DNA of 32,000 nucleotides, taken from positions 990,001 to 1,022,000 of the forward strand of contig NC_013967.1 in the NCBI RefSeq assembly GCF_000025685.1. The letters run 5' to 3'. Source of the stretch: Haloferax volcanii DS2. Its GTDB lineage: Archaea; Halobacteriota; Halobacteria; Halobacteriales; Haloferacaceae. The position numbers and the translations under genes were made by a program. How positions within the stretch are numbered: the first letter of the stretch is position 1; every line of letters starts with the position of its first letter. The notes under the pieces were generated by a model. It ran no database searches. It worked only from the letters and a program-made list of their open reading frames with translations, and was not told the origin of the DNA. Shown here one piece after another: positions 19,644 to 32,000 of the stretch.

Positions 19644-21038
19644 CATTGGTGTTCGGTTAAGCACTGGATCGCCTCCTGAAGGCCTCAGCTACTCGTTCGT
19701 TGAGTAAGAGCCGCGATTTCTCTGGTTGGCGGGCGTCACGAAACAGCAGTTCCGACAGGTTCGGCGGTGGATGGCCGAACGACTGGGCCAGATCTTCGAG
19801 CATGAGCTGGGCGAGAGACCGGAAGGTCTTCGCCCAGCGTTCTCGCGGAAACACTGTCTCTGGGAACAGCTCCTGAAACACCCCGAGCAAGGCTCTGCTG
19901 ACCGTCAGCGTCAGCAGAGCCGCCACCACTAACAGCTCCACGATCGCTGGATCACTCGTCTGGAATTTCTCCAGCCCATACAGCGACTTCAGTTCCCGGA
20001 ACACCAACTCCACTTCCCACCGCAACCCGTACAGCGCCCCGACCTGCCTTGGAGTGAACTCATCGGGCAGATTCGTCACGTACAGGTGGTAGTCGTCGGT
20101 GTCCTCGTTGCGGACACCGACGACGCGAAACTCCATCGAATCCGTTGATTCCTTCCCAGCGTATGCCCGCCGTTTGAACTCGATCTCTACCGTTACGTCG
20201 ATGATCTCCCGACTGAGATCTTCCAGAACGTCCCGAAGACGACGCTCTGGCAAGGAAATGGCGCGCCCGCGCCATTTCCGTCGCTCTCCAACGATCAACG
20301 GATTCGCGTTCGACTTCAGCCGACTCAGGAAGAACCCGCCGTTCTCCTCGATCAACGCGAAGCGGCGGAAACTGTAGAAGCCCAGATCGAACAGTAACAG
20401 CCGGCCTCGTAGCCAACTCCCGGTGCGGAGTTGGCTGCTCTCGTGGGTGCGTTCATCGGTGAGCTGGAACTGCTCGATCGTCTGCTTGGTCGCGTTCTGC
20501 ACGAGGTGGAGTTTCGCGCCGGATTGACCCGAGTGAGTGGCTGGAAACGAATCGAGGAGCCGATGCAACCTGAACACGGTTGCATCGGCGATCAGTACGT
20601 CTCGAAACAGCTCGAACTGTGGCGCGATCGTGTGAGGAACCGCGACCTCCTCGAGAGCGTGCTCGAGGAGGTCGTTCAACAGTGCTGCGAGGGCCGGCGT
20701 GAACCGATCGTAGAAGCTTGAGCGGGCAACGGTCTGGTTGGTTGCTGCGGAGTACGCCCGTTGAAAGCCGGCGATAGTTCGGGCTTCGCCGTCGACGGCG
20801 AAGCCCATGATGAGCGTCCAGACGAGCATCGTGATGTCGATTTTCCGGTCACGCTGGACGACATCGCGCTCGCGCGCGATGTCTTCGATTAGCTCGGTGG
20901 GAAACAGGGAAGTCAACCGTCGTCGTATGAGATCCGGGGAGAGTTGGTTTAGCACATTCTCTCCCCACGCGGTCTACAACGATAGCTTCGTCACTAGAGC
21001 GCCGTCTGTCGGTTTCTCCGCTTAACCGAACACGGATG
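19644..21038 (-). mobile_element. IS4-family insertion sequence (~1395 bp), apparently intact
   Basis: The terminal inverted repeats are CATTGGTGTTCGGTTAAGC (19644-19662) and the reverse complement of 21020-21038, CATCCGTGTTCGGTTAAGC (17/19 identical). It has CA...TG termini, a single transposase ORF, flanking direct repeats, and visibly lower GC than the surrounding chromosome. Confidence 0.85.
19657..20955 (-). CDS. IS4-family DDE transposase
   Basis: 432 aa with a GTG start. DDE candidates are LIADATVF, LLLFDLGFYS and YGLRWEVELVFRELK. The last fits the IS4 Y-(2)-R-(3)-E-(6)-K signature exactly. The stop codon lies inside the left terminal repeat. Confidence 0.93.
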   Translation of the reverse strand: MLNQLSPDLIRRRLTSLFPTELIEDIARERDVVQRDRKIDITMLVWTLIMGFAVDGEARTIAGFQRAYSAATNQTVARSSFYDRFTPALAALLNDLLEHALEEVAVPHTIAPQFELFRDVLIADATVFRLHRLLDSFPATHSGQSGAKLHLVQNATKQTIEQFQLTDERTHESSQLRTGSWLRGRLLLFDLGFYSFRRFALIEENGGFFLSRLKSNANPLIVGERRKWRGRAISLPERRLRDVLEDLSREIIDVTVEIEFKRRAYAGKESTDSMEFRVVGVRNEDTDDYHLYVTNLPDEFTPRQVGALYGLRWEVELVFRELKSLYGLEKFQTSDPAIVELLVVAALLTLTVSRALLGVFQELFPETVFPRERWAKTFRSLAQLMLEDLAQSFGHPPPNLSELLFRDARQPEKSRLLLNERVAEAFRRRSSA

Positions 21039-29802: not shown

Positions 29803-30444
29803 ATGACGAGCGCAGCGGGCATCAGAGCGGAGTTGAAAGTGACGGGGCCGGACGGCTGTCCGGTCGCGACCGTCTCCGAGGGCGACACCTCGGGCTACGC
29901 GCTCTCGCGGAGCATGGCTCCCAACGAGCGCGGGTCGGTCGTCGAGGAGTTCGTCTTCGACGACGACGCCGAGGTCCCGGAGGAGATGGAGGAGTTGTTC
30001 GAGTACGGCGACGGGAGCGTCTACCGGTTCGACCGCGAGGGCGGCATCGGCTGTCCCTGCGAGCGCGTCGAGGCGTTCGACTGCCCGGTCGTGGACGTGC
30101 AGACGCGCGACGGCGCGCTGTTTCTGACGTTCCACGCGCCGGACGTGGAGACGCTCCGCGACGTGGTCGCCGCCCTCCGAGAGTCGTCGGGGTCGGTGGA
30201 CGTGCGCCGGCTGCTCCAGTCGTCGACCGACGAGTCGCGGGACCTCGTGTTGGTCGAGCGCGGCCAGCTCACCGACCGCCAGCGCGAGGTGCTGGAGACG
30301 GCCCACGAGATGGGCTACTTCGACCACCCGCGGCGCGCGAACAAAGGCGAGGTCGCGGCCGAACTCGGCATCACGACCTCGACGTTCTCCGAGCACCTCG
30401 CCATGGCGCAGAAGAAGCTCATGGGTGCCATTCTCCAGGAGTGA
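29803..30444 (+). CDS. HTH_10 (bacterio-opsin activator-type) transcription regulator with a Cys-rich N-terminal domain
   Basis: In-frame ATG at 29803 inside track ORF 29512..30444. The C-terminus LTDRQREVLETAHEMGYFDHPRRANKGEVAAELGITTSTFSEHLAMAQKKL is the HTH_10 signature. The N-terminal domain carries four Cys (GCPVATV, GCPCERVEAFDCP). Confidence 0.85.
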   Translation: MTSAAGIRAELKVTGPDGCPVATVSEGDTSGYALSRSMAPNERGSVVEEFVFDDDAEVPEEMEELFEYGDGSVYRFDREGGIGCPCERVEAFDCPVVDVQTRDGALFLTFHAPDVETLRDVVAALRESSGSVDVRRLLQSSTDESRDLVLVERGQLTDRQREVLETAHEMGYFDHPRRANKGEVAAELGITTSTFSEHLAMAQKKLMGAILQE

Positions 30445-30706: not shown

Positions 30707-31228
30707 TTACTCGACGACGACGACGCCGACCATGCCGAGCGTCTCGTGGGGGACGCAGACGTACTTGTACTCGCCGGACTCCTCGAACGTGTACTCGAAG
30801 GTGTGGCCCTCGGAGACGGTGAGTTCCGACTCGAACAGGCCGTCTTCGCGGTTGACGACGTTGTGCGTCCCGCCGTTTCCGGTCCACTCCCAGACGACCG
30901 TCGTTCCCGGCGAGACCTGCACCGCGGCGGGGGCGAACGCGTAGCCGCCGCCGTTGCCTGCCGCGCCGACCGCGACCGTCACGCTGTCCTGTCCCGTCAG
31001 GTCGTGGACGCCGTCGTAGTTTTGCGTCCGGTCGAACCAGCCGCCGAAGTCCCGCATCTCGTGGTCGGCCGTGTCGTCCCCGCCGGACGTGTCGCCGCCG
31101 GCTCCGTCGCCGTCGCCCGCGCCGCCGGAGCCGTCGCCGGACGAACTCGAACAGCCCGCAAGCAGCGCGATACCAGTCGAAGCCGCCGTTGCGTGGAGAA
31201 ACGACCGCCGGGAAACCCGTTGCGTCAT
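30707..31228 (-). CDS. halocyanin (type-1 blue copper protein), Tat-lipoprotein
   Basis: 173 aa. It has a twin-arginine signal (SRRSFL) with the lipobox LLAGC, a Gly/Asp/Ser linker, and cupredoxin ligands (THNVV ... YVCVPHETLGM). Confidence 0.9.
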   Translation of the reverse strand: MTQRVSRRSFLHATAASTGIALLAGCSSSSGDGSGGAGDGDGAGGDTSGGDDTADHEMRDFGGWFDRTQNYDGVHDLTGQDSVTVAVGAAGNGGGYAFAPAAVQVSPGTTVVWEWTGNGGTHNVVNREDGLFESELTVSEGHTFEYTFEESGEYKYVCVPHETLGMVGVVVVE

Positions 31229-31328
31229 TAGCTGGCTCTAGTGAGCGGCCGAACAAGTCGAAAGCTTCGATTCCCACGCGCTGAAAACGGGCGAAACGAG
31301 CGTGACCGTCCCGCCCGAAGGCGACGGC

Positions 31329-31658
31329 ATGGACGACGACGACCCGAGGCGACGACCGCGAATCGACGGCAGCCGCCAGTGGGAAGTGTTCTACCGCGAC
31401 GTGCCGACCGAGCCGATGCGCCACGTCGGCAGCGTGAGCGCGCCCTCCGAGGACCTCGCGACCGAGCAGGCGCGGACGCTGTTCGGCGGCGGCGACGCGG
31501 ACCTCTGGCTCGCGCCGGCCGACGAGTTCCTCCGACTCGGCGGGAACGACCTCGCCGCGAAGGGCGAGGAGTCGACCGACGGGACGGAACACGGCGGGAT
31601 GGAGCACGACGGTGCGGGGGACGCCCGCGGTGCCGAAAACGGGGTGTCCGCCGAGTGA
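31329..31658 (+). CDS. small acidic PaaB-fold protein, radical-SAM-partnered (haloarchaeal family, function unknown)
   Basis: Track ORF 31302..31658 with a GTG start; I prefer the ATG at 31329 (MDDDDPRRRP...). The core QWEVFYRDVPTEPMRHVGSVSAPSEDLATEQARTLF...DLWLAPADEF resembles the PaaB consensus. The C-terminal tail is rich in Gly/Glu/Asp/His. The stop overlaps the next gene's GTG (GTGA). Confidence 0.75.
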   Translation: MDDDDPRRRPRIDGSRQWEVFYRDVPTEPMRHVGSVSAPSEDLATEQARTLFGGGDADLWLAPADEFLRLGGNDLAAKGEESTDGTEHGGMEHDGAGDARGAENGVSAE

Positions 31659-32000
31659 TTTCCATCAGCAAGCTCCTCTGCGGGCAGGGAGCCGAGGGCG
31701 ACGGTCTCCGCTACGACGACCCCGACGCCGACATCGAGCAGATACGCGAGGAGAAACAGAAACGTCCGGTCGTCGTCTGGAACACGACGCGGCGCTGTAA
31801 CCTCTACTGCGAACACTGCTACGCCGGGGCCGACCTCGACCCCGCGCAGGGCGAACTCTCGACCGCCGAGGCGAAGGGCCTCATCGACGACCTCGCGGCC
31901 TACGACGTGCCGGTGCTCCTGTTTTCGGGGGGCGAACCGCTCGTCCGCGAGGACCTCGTCGAACTCGTCGATTACGCGACCGACGCCGGCATCCGGGCGG
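31655..32000 (+). CDS. radical SAM enzyme, NirJ/AhbC/AhbD-like, N-terminal 115 codons (continues past the right edge)
   Basis: Absent from the track because there is no stop in the window. My translation is (V/M)ISISKLLCGQGAEGDGLRYDDPDADIEQIREEKQKRPVVVWNTTRRCNLYCEHCYAGADL...LLFSGGEPLVRED. It has the CX3CX2C cluster motif and the GGEP SAM-binding motif. Confidence 0.85.
   Translation, partial: MISISKLLCGQGAEGDGLRYDDPDADIEQIREEKQKRPVVVWNTTRRCNLYCEHCYAGADLDPAQGELSTAEAKGLIDDLAAYDVPVLLFSGGEPLVREDLVELVDYATDAGIRA

What the first reader, a model, noticed from the sequence alone, without database searches (positions are those of the whole stretch)
31302..32000. PaaB-fold small acidic protein translationally coupled to a NirJ/AhbD-like radical SAM enzyme
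Seen in sequence: a ~110-118-aa ORF whose core (QWEVFYRD....MRHVGSVSAPSEDLATEQARTLF....DLWLAPADEF) resembles the conserved core of PaaB, the small subunit of phenylacetyl-CoA epoxidase. No other paa gene is in the window. The ORF ends in a ~40-aa Gly/Glu/Asp/His-rich tail (GEESTDGTEHGGMEHDGAGDARGAENGVSAE). Its stop overlaps (GTGA) the start of a radical SAM gene with CNLYCEHCY and an 'ISISKLLCG...LRY' N-terminus, which I associate with the NirJ/AhbC/AhbD SPASM subgroup. From memory, this haloarchaeal pair is catalogued only as an 'rSAM-partnered protein / candidate RiPP' family, with no experimental work. There are two competing readings. In the first, the small protein or its tail is a substrate modified by the rSAM. 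In the second, it is a PaaB-like accessory or scaffold subunit of an alternative-heme-pathway-type rSAM. Either would be new biology.
Basis: partly seen in the sequence, partly recalled or inferred. Interest (0 to 1): 0.72.

Follow-up and report, generated by a model that had tools for sequence, protein, structure and literature searches.

The report
PaaB-like partner of haloarchaeal heme enzyme AhbC
A small protein with the fold of PaaB is co-translated in nearly all salt-loving archaea examined with the radical SAM enzyme assigned to the second-to-last step of their heme pathway, so it is probably an unrecognised helper subunit of that enzyme and not the "candidate peptide natural product" that databases call it.

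Summary
Window 31302-31658 (+) encodes a 118-aa protein; the likely true start is ATG 31329, giving 109 aa. Its TGA stop overlaps, as GTGA, the start of a radical SAM gene that the window end cuts off.

- **Small protein.** It passes Pfam PaaB and NCBIfam TIGR04031 ("Htur_1727 rSAM-partnered candidate RiPP"). Its AlphaFold core matches only PaaB crystal structures.
- **rSAM.** It is 402 aa in full and is Haloferax volcanii HVO_1121, which the literature calls AhbC (didecarboxysiroheme to coproheme). Both Fe-S motifs are intact despite the NCBIfam label "pseudo-SAM".
- **Conservation.** 55 of 57 haloarchaeal loci found from the small protein, and 4 of 4 found from the rSAM, keep the pair. 51 of the 55 have the same 4-nt overlap.
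- **Heme link.** In 30 of 47 non-Haloferax loci the validated heme synthase gene ahbD lies within 4 kb.
- **Acidic tail.** It varies from 1 to 105 aa, has no conserved residue, and carries the Shine-Dalgarno-like site of the rSAM gene.
- **Fusions and papers.** I found no fusion protein and no paper on the small protein.

Best reading (about 0.6): a non-catalytic PaaB-fold accessory or bridging subunit of haloarchaeal AhbC. The RiPP-precursor reading is disfavoured. I class it as a new variant of a known kind, of moderate interest.

The parts
31302..31658 (+). Small ORF, the HVO_1120-type Htur_1727 family protein. The longest reading is 118 aa from GTG 31302. The probable true start is ATG 31329 (109 aa).
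   Evidence: ORF list and sequence. TIGR04031 scores 69 bits against a cut-off of 57.2, and Pfam PaaB 32.9 against 27. An identical protein is called on 298 contigs. Most homologues start at the Met10 position.
31374..31553 (+). Conserved PaaB-like core, residues 25-84, with strand-strand-helix-strand topology.
   Evidence: AlphaFold pLDDT is 89-95 over residues 21-70. The top three Foldseek PDB hits are PaaB 4iit_B, 3egr_B and 3egr_A, with TM 0.74-0.80 and rmsd 1.9-2.4 A. G43, A53, L60 and W69 are invariant, and W27, E28, F30, R32, H41 and R78 are at least 90% conserved in 83 sequences. Five correctly registered species pairs give dN/dS of 0.09-0.38 and a sixth gives 0.72, each over only 35 codons.
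31554..31655 (+). Acidic Gly/Glu/Asp/His-rich C-terminal tail, residues 85-118. It is predicted disordered and is not conserved.
   Evidence: pLDDT is 54-65. Across 83 family members the tail is 1-105 aa long (median 28) with no conserved column.
31641..31646 (+). Shine-Dalgarno-like GGGGTG inside the 3' end of the small ORF, 9-14 nt before the rSAM start codon.
   Evidence: Aligned upstream regions of 59 distinct loci show a G-rich GGAGGTGA-like consensus at about -15 to -7.
31655..31658 (+). GTGA overlap of the rSAM start codon and the small-ORF stop codon (translational coupling).
   Evidence: The sequence shows it. The same 4-nt ATGA or GTGA overlap occurs in 51 of 55 paired loci from the genome scan, and in L068-L070 and L076.
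31655..32000 (+). 5' part (115 codons) of the radical SAM/SPASM gene, HVO_1121-type. It belongs to NCBIfam TIGR04347 and is annotated AhbC in the literature. The window end truncates it; the full length is 402 aa.
   Evidence: The fragment scores 191.7 bits to TIGR04347. The full protein scores 749.5 bits against a cut-off of 525, with AhbC TIGR04546 at 452 and NirJ1 at 450 next best. HVO_1121 = ahbC in PMC8305020 and PMC5746218.
31796..31819 (+). CX3CX2C radical SAM cluster motif (CNLYCEHC, residues 48-55 of the rSAM).
   Evidence: The sequence shows it. The motif is present in all 59 distinct locus copies and in 120 of 120 family representatives.
31229..31328 (+). Spacer between the divergent halocyanin-like gene (30707-31228, minus strand) and the small ORF; presumed promoter region. 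It contains CGAAAGCTTCG at 31259-31269.
   Evidence: Sequence. The CGAA-N3-TTCG match is not above chance: 3 found against 1.6 expected. It is kept only in the H. volcanii group. This is a weak lead and no more.

Best explanation
The small protein is a non-catalytic accessory subunit with the PaaB fold. It serves the haloarchaeal form of AhbC, the radical SAM/SPASM enzyme that removes the two acetate side chains of 12,18-didecarboxysiroheme to give Fe-coproporphyrin III (coproheme) in siroheme-dependent heme synthesis.

The two genes form one translational unit. The ribosome that finishes the small ORF restarts at the overlapping GTG/ATG, helped by a Shine-Dalgarno-like site inside the small ORF's last codons, so the two proteins are made together.

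By analogy with PaaB, whose dimer bridges two PaaA-PaaC heterodimers and carries no cofactor, the roughly 60-residue core most likely binds the rSAM and dimerises. That would organise or stabilise an AhbC2-(partner)2 assembly. The acidic tail is a dispensable, haloarchaeal-style disordered appendage.

Shown here: the fold, the family membership, the conserved pairing and coupling, and the linkage to ahbD. Inferred: the physical interaction, the stoichiometry, the bridging role, and that HVO_1121 really carries out the AhbC reaction (that assignment rests on homology).
For: 1. **PaaB homology and fold.** Pfam scores above its cut-off. A family profile hits PaaB structures at E = 1e-5. The AlphaFold core has pLDDT of about 90-95, and only PaaB structures match it.
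2. **PaaB's known role.** It is a cofactor-less bridging subunit whose dimer holds two PaaAC units together, and its loss cuts product more than 100-fold (PMC9493321).
3. **The rSAM is the AhbC-type enzyme.** TIGR04347 scores 749 bits, with AhbC and NirJ1 next best. HVO_1121 is listed as ahbC, 47% identical to the characterised M. barkeri Mbar_A1793. CX3CX2C and the C-terminal CX2CX5CX21C are intact.
4. **The pairing is conserved across Halobacteria.** 55 of 57 loci found from the small protein keep it, as do 4 of 4 found from the rSAM in Haloarcula, Halorubrum, Halogeometricum and Natranaeroarchaeum, while the other neighbouring genes differ. The 4-nt overlap is kept in 51 of 55, with an SD-like motif upstream.
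5. **Heme context.** A second rSAM lies within 4 kb in 30 of 47 non-Haloferax loci and is divergent in 24. It is 55-81% identical to the H. volcanii protein P0404. P0404 sits between nirK/HVO_2142 and norB, so it is HVO_2144, the AhbD validated by deletion. PMC3403918 gives Htur_1726 and Htur_1728 as the AhbC and AhbD orthologues, which flank the family namesake Htur_1727.
6. **Selection is on the folded core, not the tail.** Invariant core residues and dN/dS of 0.09-0.38 in five of six registered pairs (0.72 in the sixth, 35 codons each) contrast with a tail of 1-105 aa that has no conserved column.
7. **Haloferax has a separate genuine paaABCD cluster**, and this protein fails both PaaB equivalog models. 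It is therefore a recruited paralogue.
Against: - No physical interaction, co-purification or complex model was obtained. The tools give no multimer prediction.
- I found no natural fusion of the two proteins among the best 150 of 246 hits in 1.84 billion representatives, so there is no Rosetta-stone support.
- M. barkeri AhbC is active in E. coli extracts without such a partner. The family looks confined to Halobacteria as far as names are available. The partner is therefore not intrinsic to AhbC chemistry.
- Three orphan small genes lack an adjacent rSAM (L046, L063, L075).
- HVO_1121 scores below the NCBIfam AhbC equivalog cut-off (452 against 650), and its activity has never been measured.
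- One paper says some haloarchaea lack ahbC altogether.
Confidence: 0.6

Rival explanations
1. RiPP or protein-substrate reading, the current database label. The small protein, or its C-terminal tail, is a ribosomally made precursor that the adjacent rSAM/SPASM enzyme modifies, as with PqqA/PqqE or MftA/MftC.
For: - NCBIfam names the family 'rSAM-partnered candidate RiPP'.
- The partner is a SPASM-type rSAM whose closest solved relative by sequence is the peptide-modifying PqqE.
- Gene order and coupling resemble precursor-maturase pairs.
- A minority of tails carry a short motif, EPR[VIT][YHT]E, at or near the C-terminus. It is conserved at the amino-acid level, and Cys71 is present in 70 of 83 members.
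Against: - The only universally conserved part is a 59-aa folded domain homologous to PaaB.
- The tail can be as short as 1 residue. The EPR motif is found in 11 of 83 members and is absent from Haloferax. Cys71 is Ala in the H. volcanii group.
- The rSAM shows no RRE or PqqD domain; only Fer4_12, Radical_SAM and SPASM are recorded.
- No protease or exporter is conserved nearby, and neighbours differ between genera.
- The rSAM is the only AhbC candidate named in Haloferax heme pathway reconstructions, and it is linked to ahbD.
Confidence: 0.08
2. Tetrapyrrole carrier or hand-off factor. The small protein binds the substrate or the product (coproheme). It either passes coproheme from the oxygen-sensitive AhbC to the aerobic decarboxylase ChdC or to AhbD, or it protects the enzyme in these mostly aerobic organisms. 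On this reading it is not purely structural.
For: - As far as names are available, the family is confined to Halobacteria. These organisms run an unusual hybrid route in which AhbC feeds either ChdC (aerobic) or AhbD (anaerobic).
- The family has its own conserved charged residues, R20 and R78, beside the PaaB-wide His41.
- Heme-related genes recur nearby: ahbD, and UbiA or COX1 in L069 and L075. These two were not followed up and might not be heme enzymes.
- The partner stays with ahbC even where ahbD lies elsewhere, as in Haloferax.
Against: - No ligand-binding evidence exists, and PaaB itself binds no cofactor.
- His41 and most other invariant residues are shared with ordinary PaaB, so they more likely reflect the fold or a protein-protein interface.
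- The core is very small, about 60 residues.
Confidence: 0.2
3. It is an ordinary PaaB of phenylacetate catabolism that merely happens to sit next to an rSAM gene.
For: Pfam PaaB scores above its gathering threshold, and the fold matches PaaB crystal structures.
Against: - It fails both PaaB equivalog models: TIGR02157 scores 24.5 against 85.45, and haloarchaeal PaaB NF041867 scores 22 against 150.
- No paaA, paaC, paaD or paaE was found in the window or in the 20-kb Haloferax locus.
- Haloferax has a separate paaABCD cluster.
- The pairing with the rSAM is conserved in 55 of 57 loci.
Confidence: 0.01
4. The ORF matters mainly as a coupling device, an upstream ORF that delivers ribosomes to the rSAM start. 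Its protein product has little function of its own.
For: The 4-nt overlap and the SD-like site inside the ORF's 3' end are conserved. The tail sequence appears to be shaped partly by that nucleotide motif.
Against: Amino-acid-level conservation of a folded domain holds across the class, with invariant residues and dN/dS well below 1 in most comparisons. A mere coupling ORF would not keep a PaaB fold.
Confidence: 0.03

Closest known systems
PaaB, bridging subunit of phenylacetyl-CoA 1,2-epoxidase PaaABC(D)E (Pfam PF06243; PDB 4IIT chain B, 3EGR)
   Same: Both have the same small strand-strand-helix-strand core (TM 0.74-0.80, rmsd about 2 A). They share the signature residues WEVF.R...HVGS..A....A...A....W. 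Both are small, cofactor-less proteins encoded next to the enzyme they would serve.
   Different: The partner here is a radical SAM/SPASM enzyme, not a di-iron four-helix-bundle oxygenase. The protein fails both PaaB equivalog models. No paa genes lie nearby. The family has its own conserved positions: R20, the L-C-P-A-D segment, R78 and L84. The usual PaaB C-terminal segment is replaced by a variable acidic tail.
AhbC (12,18-didecarboxysiroheme deacetylase; M. barkeri Mbar_A1793) and its relatives NirJ1 and NirJ
   Same: The rSAM aligns end to end with the AhbC and NirJ1 models (positions 1-389 of 390). It shares the MISISKLLCG...LRY N-terminus, the CX3CX2C motif and the auxiliary-cluster motif. 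The literature annotates it as ahbC at 47% identity, and it is genomically linked to ahbD.
   Different: It forms a separate haloarchaeal family, TIGR04347, which scores below the AhbC equivalog cut-off. It has a translationally coupled PaaB-like partner that is not reported for AhbC in methanogens or sulfate reducers. Its activity has not been tested.
rSAM/SPASM peptide maturase systems with small partner genes (PqqA-PqqE with PqqD, MftA-MftC with MftB)
   Same: A small ORF lies immediately upstream of a SPASM-type rSAM gene. PqqE is the nearest solved structure by sequence. Database curators filed the pair by this analogy.
   Different: No RRE or PqqD-like domain or gene is present, no conserved modifiable core peptide exists, and no protease or exporter accompanies the pair. 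The small protein is a folded domain homologous to an enzyme subunit.

Membership tests
NCBIfam TIGR04031 (Htur_1727 family rSAM-partnered protein) | HMM score above the curated cut-off | tested here: met
   69 bits against a cut-off of 57.2, E = 2.6e-19. NCBI names the identical protein this way.
NCBIfam TIGR04031 (Htur_1727 family rSAM-partnered protein) | Encoded next to a radical SAM gene in Halobacteria | tested here: met
   Stop and start overlap in the window. 55 of 57 haloarchaeal loci are paired, and 4 of 4 reverse look-ups are paired.
PaaB (Pfam PF06243) homology superfamily | Sequence match above the Pfam gathering score, and the PaaB fold | tested here: met
   32.9 bits against 27. 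The PDB profile search finds 4iit_B and 3egr_A. The top three Foldseek PDB hits are 4iit_B, 3egr_B and 3egr_A, with probability 1.00.
[quoted passage not shown] | Equivalog HMM score above the cut-off | tested here: not met
   TIGR02157 scores 24.5 against 85.45. NF041867 (haloarchaeal PaaB) scores 22 against 150.
[quoted passage not shown] | Genomic context with paaA, paaC, paaD and paaE | tested here: not met
   None is present in the 20-kb Haloferax locus or among the scanned window ORFs. A genuine paaABCD cluster exists elsewhere in Haloferax.
RiPP precursor peptide | A conserved core peptide with modifiable residues, distinct from a leader | tested here: not met
   The tail is 1-105 aa long with no conserved column. 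The conserved part is a folded 59-aa domain. The H. volcanii-group protein has no Cys.
RiPP precursor peptide | A maturase with a recognition element (RRE/PqqD), plus a protease or exporter in the cluster | tested here: not met
   The rSAM shows only the Fer4_12, Radical_SAM and SPASM domains. Flanking genes are unrelated and differ between genera.
RiPP precursor peptide | A covalent post-translational modification that depends on the rSAM | not testable with these tools
   This needs mass spectrometry of HVO_1120 with and without HVO_1121.
Radical SAM/SPASM enzyme (partner gene) | CX3CX2C cluster motif, the GGE SAM-binding motif and C-terminal auxiliary-cluster cysteines | tested here: met
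   CNLYCEHC, FSGGEP and CATCQYQDVC-X21-C are in the 402-aa protein. Both Cys motifs are present in 120 of 120 family representatives, which contradicts the 'pseudo-SAM' label.
AhbC (12,18-didecarboxysiroheme deacetylase, TIGR04546) | Equivalog HMM score above the cut-off | tested here: not met
   452 bits against 650. The protein belongs instead to the haloarchaeal sister model TIGR04347, with 749.5 bits against 525.
AhbC (12,18-didecarboxysiroheme deacetylase, TIGR04546) | Orthology and pathway context: it is the AhbC candidate of the genome and is linked to other ahb genes | tested here: met
   HVO_1121 is listed as ahbC at 47% identity to Mbar_A1793. AhbD orthologues lie adjacent in 30 loci. 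Htur_1726 and Htur_1728 are named as the AhbC and AhbD orthologues. I did not search a whole Haloferax genome for paralogues myself.
AhbC (12,18-didecarboxysiroheme deacetylase, TIGR04546) | Catalytic conversion of didecarboxysiroheme to Fe-coproporphyrin III | not testable with these tools
   Activity is known only for M. barkeri AhbC in cell-free extracts, and no purified AhbC has been studied.

The most novel reading that the evidence does not exclude
Haloarchaeal AhbC is an obligate two-subunit radical SAM enzyme. Its recruited PaaB-fold subunit does more than hold it together: it binds or channels coproheme to the aerobic decarboxylase ChdC, or it shields the oxygen-labile enzyme. On this reading it is the adaptation that lets an anaerobic-type, siroheme-dependent heme pathway run in aerobic Halobacteria. 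The evidence fits this (a family seen only in Halobacteria, a partner that stays with ahbC and not ahbD, recurring heme-related neighbours) but does not demonstrate it.
Probability: 0.15. Interest if true: 0.8.

Novelty: new variant of a known kind. Interest (0 to 1): 0.55.

Why it matters
AhbC is the least understood enzyme of siroheme-dependent heme synthesis. Its activity has been shown only in crude extracts, no purified enzyme has been studied, and no structure exists. Reviews up to 2026 list only AhbA/B, AhbC and AhbD as the pathway's enzymes.

A strictly coupled fifth gene in a genetically tractable organism, H. volcanii, would add a component to the haloarchaeal pathway. It might explain how to obtain a stable AhbC preparation, and it would be the first case I know of in which a PaaB-fold bridging subunit is recruited to a radical SAM enzyme.

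The result also corrects two database labels that propagate widely. "Candidate RiPP" for TIGR04031 could mislead genome mining for natural products. "Pseudo-SAM" for TIGR04347 is contradicted by intact cluster motifs in every sequence I examined.

Tried and rejected
1. **The tail as RiPP core.** Rejected: it is 1-105 aa long and has no conserved column.
2. **An apparent C-terminal '(E/G)V(S/T)xE' motif.** In most loci it is explained by the nucleotide-level SD-like GGAGGTGA for the downstream gene. A distinct EPR[VIT][YHT]E motif, conserved at the amino-acid level, exists only in a minority and not in Haloferax.
3. **Natural small-protein/rSAM fusions.** None occurs among the best 150 of 246 profile hits. 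The long hit P0162 is a spurious repeat-protein match, and P0058 and P0079 look like over-extended gene calls.
4. **The roughly 185-aa two-domain PaaB-like hits.** These are ordinary tandem PaaB proteins in paaB-paaC-paaD clusters and are unrelated to the rSAM.
5. **The 'pseudo-SAM' idea that the partner has lost its cluster.** Rejected: 120 of 120 representatives are intact.
6. **A NarO-type CGAA-N4-TTCG box upstream.** It is absent from the window. Only an N3 variant is present, at chance frequency. Exact boxes occur in the ahbD-side spacer of some other genera.
7. **The bacterial-type promoter and terminator scan.** It found nothing, and it does not cover archaeal promoters.
8. **The 61-aa membrane ORF downstream of the rSAM.** It is restricted to Haloferax and is not part of the module.
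9. **A fused-chain AlphaFold model of the pair.** I prepared the sequences but did not submit them.
10. **dN/dS comparisons.** Three of nine pairs were out of register and were discarded.
Full report
**1. What is in the window**

- An ORF runs from GTG 31302 to TGA 31658 and encodes 118 aa.
- Homologues in other Haloferax species mostly begin at the Met encoded by ATG 31329, so 109 aa is the more likely product.
- The stop overlaps, as GTGA, the start of a second ORF. That ORF begins VISISKLLCG...LRY, carries CNLYCEHC at 31796-31819, and is cut by the window end after 115 codons.
- The identical small protein is called on 298 public contigs, all Haloferax.
- Those contigs supply the rest of the second gene, which is 402 aa.
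- Gene order in the window matches the H. volcanii-group chromosome: cetZ, a PIN-domain gene, a DmsR/HTH_10 regulator, a halocyanin-like gene, then the pair.

**2. The small protein**

- *Family scores.* It scores above the curated thresholds of Pfam PaaB (32.9 against 27 bits) and of NCBIfam TIGR04031, "Htur_1727 family rSAM-partnered candidate RiPP" (69 against 57.2). It fails both PaaB equivalog models, including the haloarchaeal one (24.5 against 85.45 and 22 against 150).
- *Sequence and fold.* A 12-sequence profile hits only two PDB sequences, PaaB 4iit_B and 3egr_A. An AlphaFold2 model built on 83 family members has a confident strand-strand-helix-strand core, with pLDDT 89-95 for residues 21-70, and low confidence after residue 80. 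Foldseek against the PDB returns PaaB chains as the top three hits (TM 0.74-0.80 on the target, rmsd 1.9-2.4 A, probability 1.00). Everything after them is noise.
- *Size of the family.* A profile search of 1.84 billion representative proteins finds only 246 hits at E <= 1e-3 and 82 at E <= 1e-10. The members that carry names are all haloarchaeal. Weaker hits are ordinary PaaB proteins, including tandem forms that sit in paaB-paaC-paaD clusters.
- *What is conserved.* Across 83 members the conserved unit is a 59-aa core. G43, A53, L60 and W69 are invariant, and W27, E28, F30, R32, H41 and R78 are at least 90% conserved. The C-terminal tail varies from 1 to 105 aa with no conserved column.
- *Cysteines.* The Cys found at position 71 in 70 of 83 members is Ala in the H. 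volcanii group, whose protein has no Cys at all.
- *Selection.* Six correctly registered species pairs gave dN/dS for the core: 0.09-0.38 in five and 0.72 in one, over only 35 codons each.

**3. The radical SAM partner**

- *Family scores.* The full protein scores 749.5 bits to TIGR04347, against a cut-off of 525. The next best models are AhbC (452, cut-off 650), NirJ1 (450) and NirJ (371), all aligned end to end.
- *Motifs.* It has the radical SAM CX3CX2C, an FSGGEP motif, and the C-terminal CX2CX5CX21C that is described for the auxiliary cluster of NirJ, AhbC and AhbD. Both Cys motifs are present in all 59 distinct locus copies and in 120 of 120 family representatives. The NCBIfam label "pseudo-SAM" is therefore not borne out by the sequences.
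- *Literature.* Two papers name H. volcanii HVO_1121 as ahbC. One gives 47% identity to M. barkeri Mbar_A1793, the only AhbC with demonstrated activity.
- *State of knowledge.* AhbC activity has been shown only in cell-free extracts, no purified AhbC has been studied, and no structure of this clade exists. PqqE is the nearest solved relative by sequence.

**4. Conservation of the pair**

- *From the small protein.* A scan of one genome per species returned 57 haloarchaeal loci from about 17 genera in all three classical orders, plus 4 bacterial PaaB loci. In 55 of the 57, an rSAM 68-99% identical to HVO_1121 starts immediately after the small ORF. In 51 of those 55 the stop and start overlap by the same 4 nt, ATGA or GTGA.
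- *From the rSAM.* Haloarcula, Halorubrum, Halogeometricum and Natranaeroarchaeum all have a PaaB-like ORF directly upstream, with a 4-nt overlap in three of the four. The other neighbours are unrelated.
- *Edges of the family.* One divergent metagenomic member is also paired. Three orphans lack an adjacent rSAM: L046, L063 and L075.
- *Coupling signal.* Aligned upstream regions show a Shine-Dalgarno-like G-rich motif, consensus near GGAGGTGA, about 7-15 nt before the rSAM start. In the window it is GGGGTG at 31641-31646, inside the last codons of the small ORF. This accounts for much of the apparent similarity of the extreme C-termini.
- *No fusion.* No small-protein/rSAM fusion appears among the best 150 profile hits.

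**5. The link to heme synthesis**

- In 30 of 47 non-Haloferax haloarchaeal loci a second rSAM lies within 4 kb of the pair. In 24 of them it is divergently transcribed, and in most of those it lies 70-215 nt from the small gene.
- This second rSAM belongs to TIGR04053, with AhbD as the next best model.
- It is 55-81% identical to H. volcanii protein P0404.
- P0404 sits between nirK, HVO_2142 and DUF2249 on one side and a copper protein and norB on the other. That is exactly the neighbourhood Kosugi et al. describe for HVO_2144, the AhbD they validated by deletion.
- Independently, the Natrialba magadii genome paper states that Htur_1726 and Htur_1728 are the AhbC and AhbD orthologues of Haloterrigena turkmenica. 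By locus-tag order they flank Htur_1727, the protein the small family is named after. The same paper gives NP1542A and NP1546A for Natronomonas.
- The conserved module is therefore ahbD, then (divergently) the PaaB-like gene, then ahbC.
- In Haloferax, ahbD has moved to the denitrification cluster, but the small gene stayed with ahbC.

**6. How it most likely works**

PaaB is a cofactor-less subunit. Its dimer forms a central barrel that bridges two PaaA-PaaC heterodimers, and its omission lowers product more than 100-fold.

The residues conserved in the Htur_1727 family are largely the PaaB-wide ones. The family adds a few of its own: R20, L-C-P-A-D, R78 and L84.

I therefore propose that a PaaB paralogue was recruited in an ancestor of Halobacteria as a non-catalytic accessory or bridging subunit of AhbC. 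Haloferax still has a genuine paaABCD cluster. The partner would be made together with AhbC through translational coupling, and its acidic tail would be a dispensable disordered appendage.
- *Shown:* the homology and fold, the conserved coupling, and the ahbD linkage.
- *Inferred:* the physical contact, the stoichiometry, the bridging role, and the AhbC activity of HVO_1121.
- *Main caveat:* M. barkeri AhbC works in E. coli extracts without this partner, so the role must be a lineage-specific addition and not part of the core chemistry.

**7. Rival explanations**

- *RiPP or protein substrate (about 0.08).* Adjacency, the SPASM partner, and a minority EPR[VIT][YHT]E tail motif support it. Against it: there is no universal core peptide, RRE, protease or exporter, and the rSAM is the named heme-pathway enzyme.
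- *Tetrapyrrole carrier or hand-off factor (about 0.2).* This overlaps with the best explanation and is not excluded. It would fit the restriction to Halobacteria, which feed AhbC product to ChdC aerobically or to AhbD anaerobically. There is no binding evidence.
- *Ordinary PaaB.* Contradicted.
- *A mere coupling ORF.* Contradicted by the amino-acid-level conservation of the folded core.

**8. Novelty**

The gene pair is already catalogued as TIGR04031 and TIGR04347. However, no paper in the searchable library mentions HVO_1120, Htur_1727, either model accession, or PaaB together with AhbC. Reviews up to 2026 list only AhbA/B, AhbC and AhbD for this route.

Three things appear to be new: identifying the partner rSAM as the AhbC-type heme enzyme, showing that the pair is linked to ahbD, and reading the small protein as a PaaB-derived subunit and not a RiPP. 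All three remain computational.

I class the finding as a new variant of a known kind, namely AhbC with a dedicated PaaB-fold partner. I give it moderate interest (0.55), because it is directly testable in H. volcanii and touches the least characterised step of the pathway.

Noticed in passing
L001:10354-11559 and proteins P0169-P0288: NCBIfam calls TIGR04347 a 'pseudo-SAM/SPASM protein'. Yet every sequence examined (120 of 120 representatives and 59 distinct locus copies) keeps the CX3CX2C motif and the C-terminal CX2CX5CX~21C motif. The label looks wrong or outdated.
   Followed up: yes
L022, L037, L039, L044, L050, L061, L062, L063 (spacer upstream of the small gene); window 31259-31269: Exact CGAA-N4-TTCG boxes occur 110-150 nt upstream of the small protein's W27 codon in eight non-Haloferax loci; in most of these that stretch is the spacer shared with divergent ahbD, while L044 and L063 have no ahbD upstream. 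This is the palindrome reported for anaerobically induced denitrification genes and for ahbD. The H. volcanii group has only a CGAA-N3-TTCG, at chance frequency.
   Followed up: partly
Tails of P0018, P0021, P0032, P0037, P0043, P0060, P0070, P0085, P0088, P0095, P0098; L025, L044, L048, L059, L070: A minority of family members carry a short motif, EPR[VIT][YHT]E(L), at or near the C-terminus. In some it is extended to EPRVYEETEGTP. It is conserved at the amino-acid level with synonymous codon variation. It is absent from Haloferax and its function is unknown. It may be a remnant of the PaaB C-terminal segment or a docking peptide.
   Followed up: partly
L046 (Halegenticoccus soli), L063 (Haloferacaceae MAG), L075 (Halobacteriaceae MAG): These are orphan Htur_1727-family genes with no rSAM immediately downstream. 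L046 has ahbD 0.9 kb upstream on the same strand. L075 lies next to UbiA-family and COX1 genes. I could not check whether the AhbC-type gene is elsewhere in these genomes.
   Followed up: partly
L069:5272-6135 (Halorubrum sp. BV1): A UbiA-family prenyltransferase gene directly follows the AhbC-type gene. It could be a heme O synthase (CtaB), which would be another heme link, but I did not test this.
   Followed up: no
L059:4237-5438 (Halomarina halobia plasmid): The AhbC-type gene matches in two pieces in different frames (residues 1-259 and 249-401). This suggests a frameshifted pseudogene or a sequencing error in this plasmid copy.
   Followed up: no
L001:14989-19562 (beyond the window end): Within 5-9 kb downstream of the pair in Haloferax lie a protoglobin-MCP sensor gene, cbiX2 (a candidate sirohydrochlorin chelatase discussed in PMC8305020) and a DR2241/Fer4_23 gene. 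These form a loose tetrapyrrole-related neighbourhood.
   Followed up: no
L001:11642-11827: A 61-aa ORF predicted to encode a hydrophobic, two-segment membrane protein lies 80 nt downstream of the rSAM gene. It is conserved only within Haloferax (46-100% identity) and is not part of the class-wide module.
   Followed up: yes
L073:385-936, L074:218-769 (metagenome contigs): Proteins of 183 aa with two PaaB domains in tandem are encoded in paaB-paaC-paaD clusters. They seem to be a duplicated form of the bridging subunit in an otherwise ordinary phenylacetate cluster.
   Followed up: partly
window 19657-20955 (-): This ORF encodes a DDE-type transposase (PF01609), so an insertion sequence appears to lie between the DUF7847 gene and the signal-peptide-peptidase gene.
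   Followed up: no
window 29803-30444 (+) and 30707-31228 (-): A DmsR_N/HTH_10 regulator with a Cys-rich N-terminal domain and a lipobox-type halocyanin-like copper protein lie just upstream of the pair. The regulator family includes oxygen-responsive regulators, but I tested no link to the pair.
   Followed up: no
PMC3403918: The Natrialba magadii genome paper states that this species lacks both ahbC and ahbD. If that is true, its route to coproheme is unexplained. It would also be a natural test of whether the small protein is lost together with ahbC.
   Followed up: no
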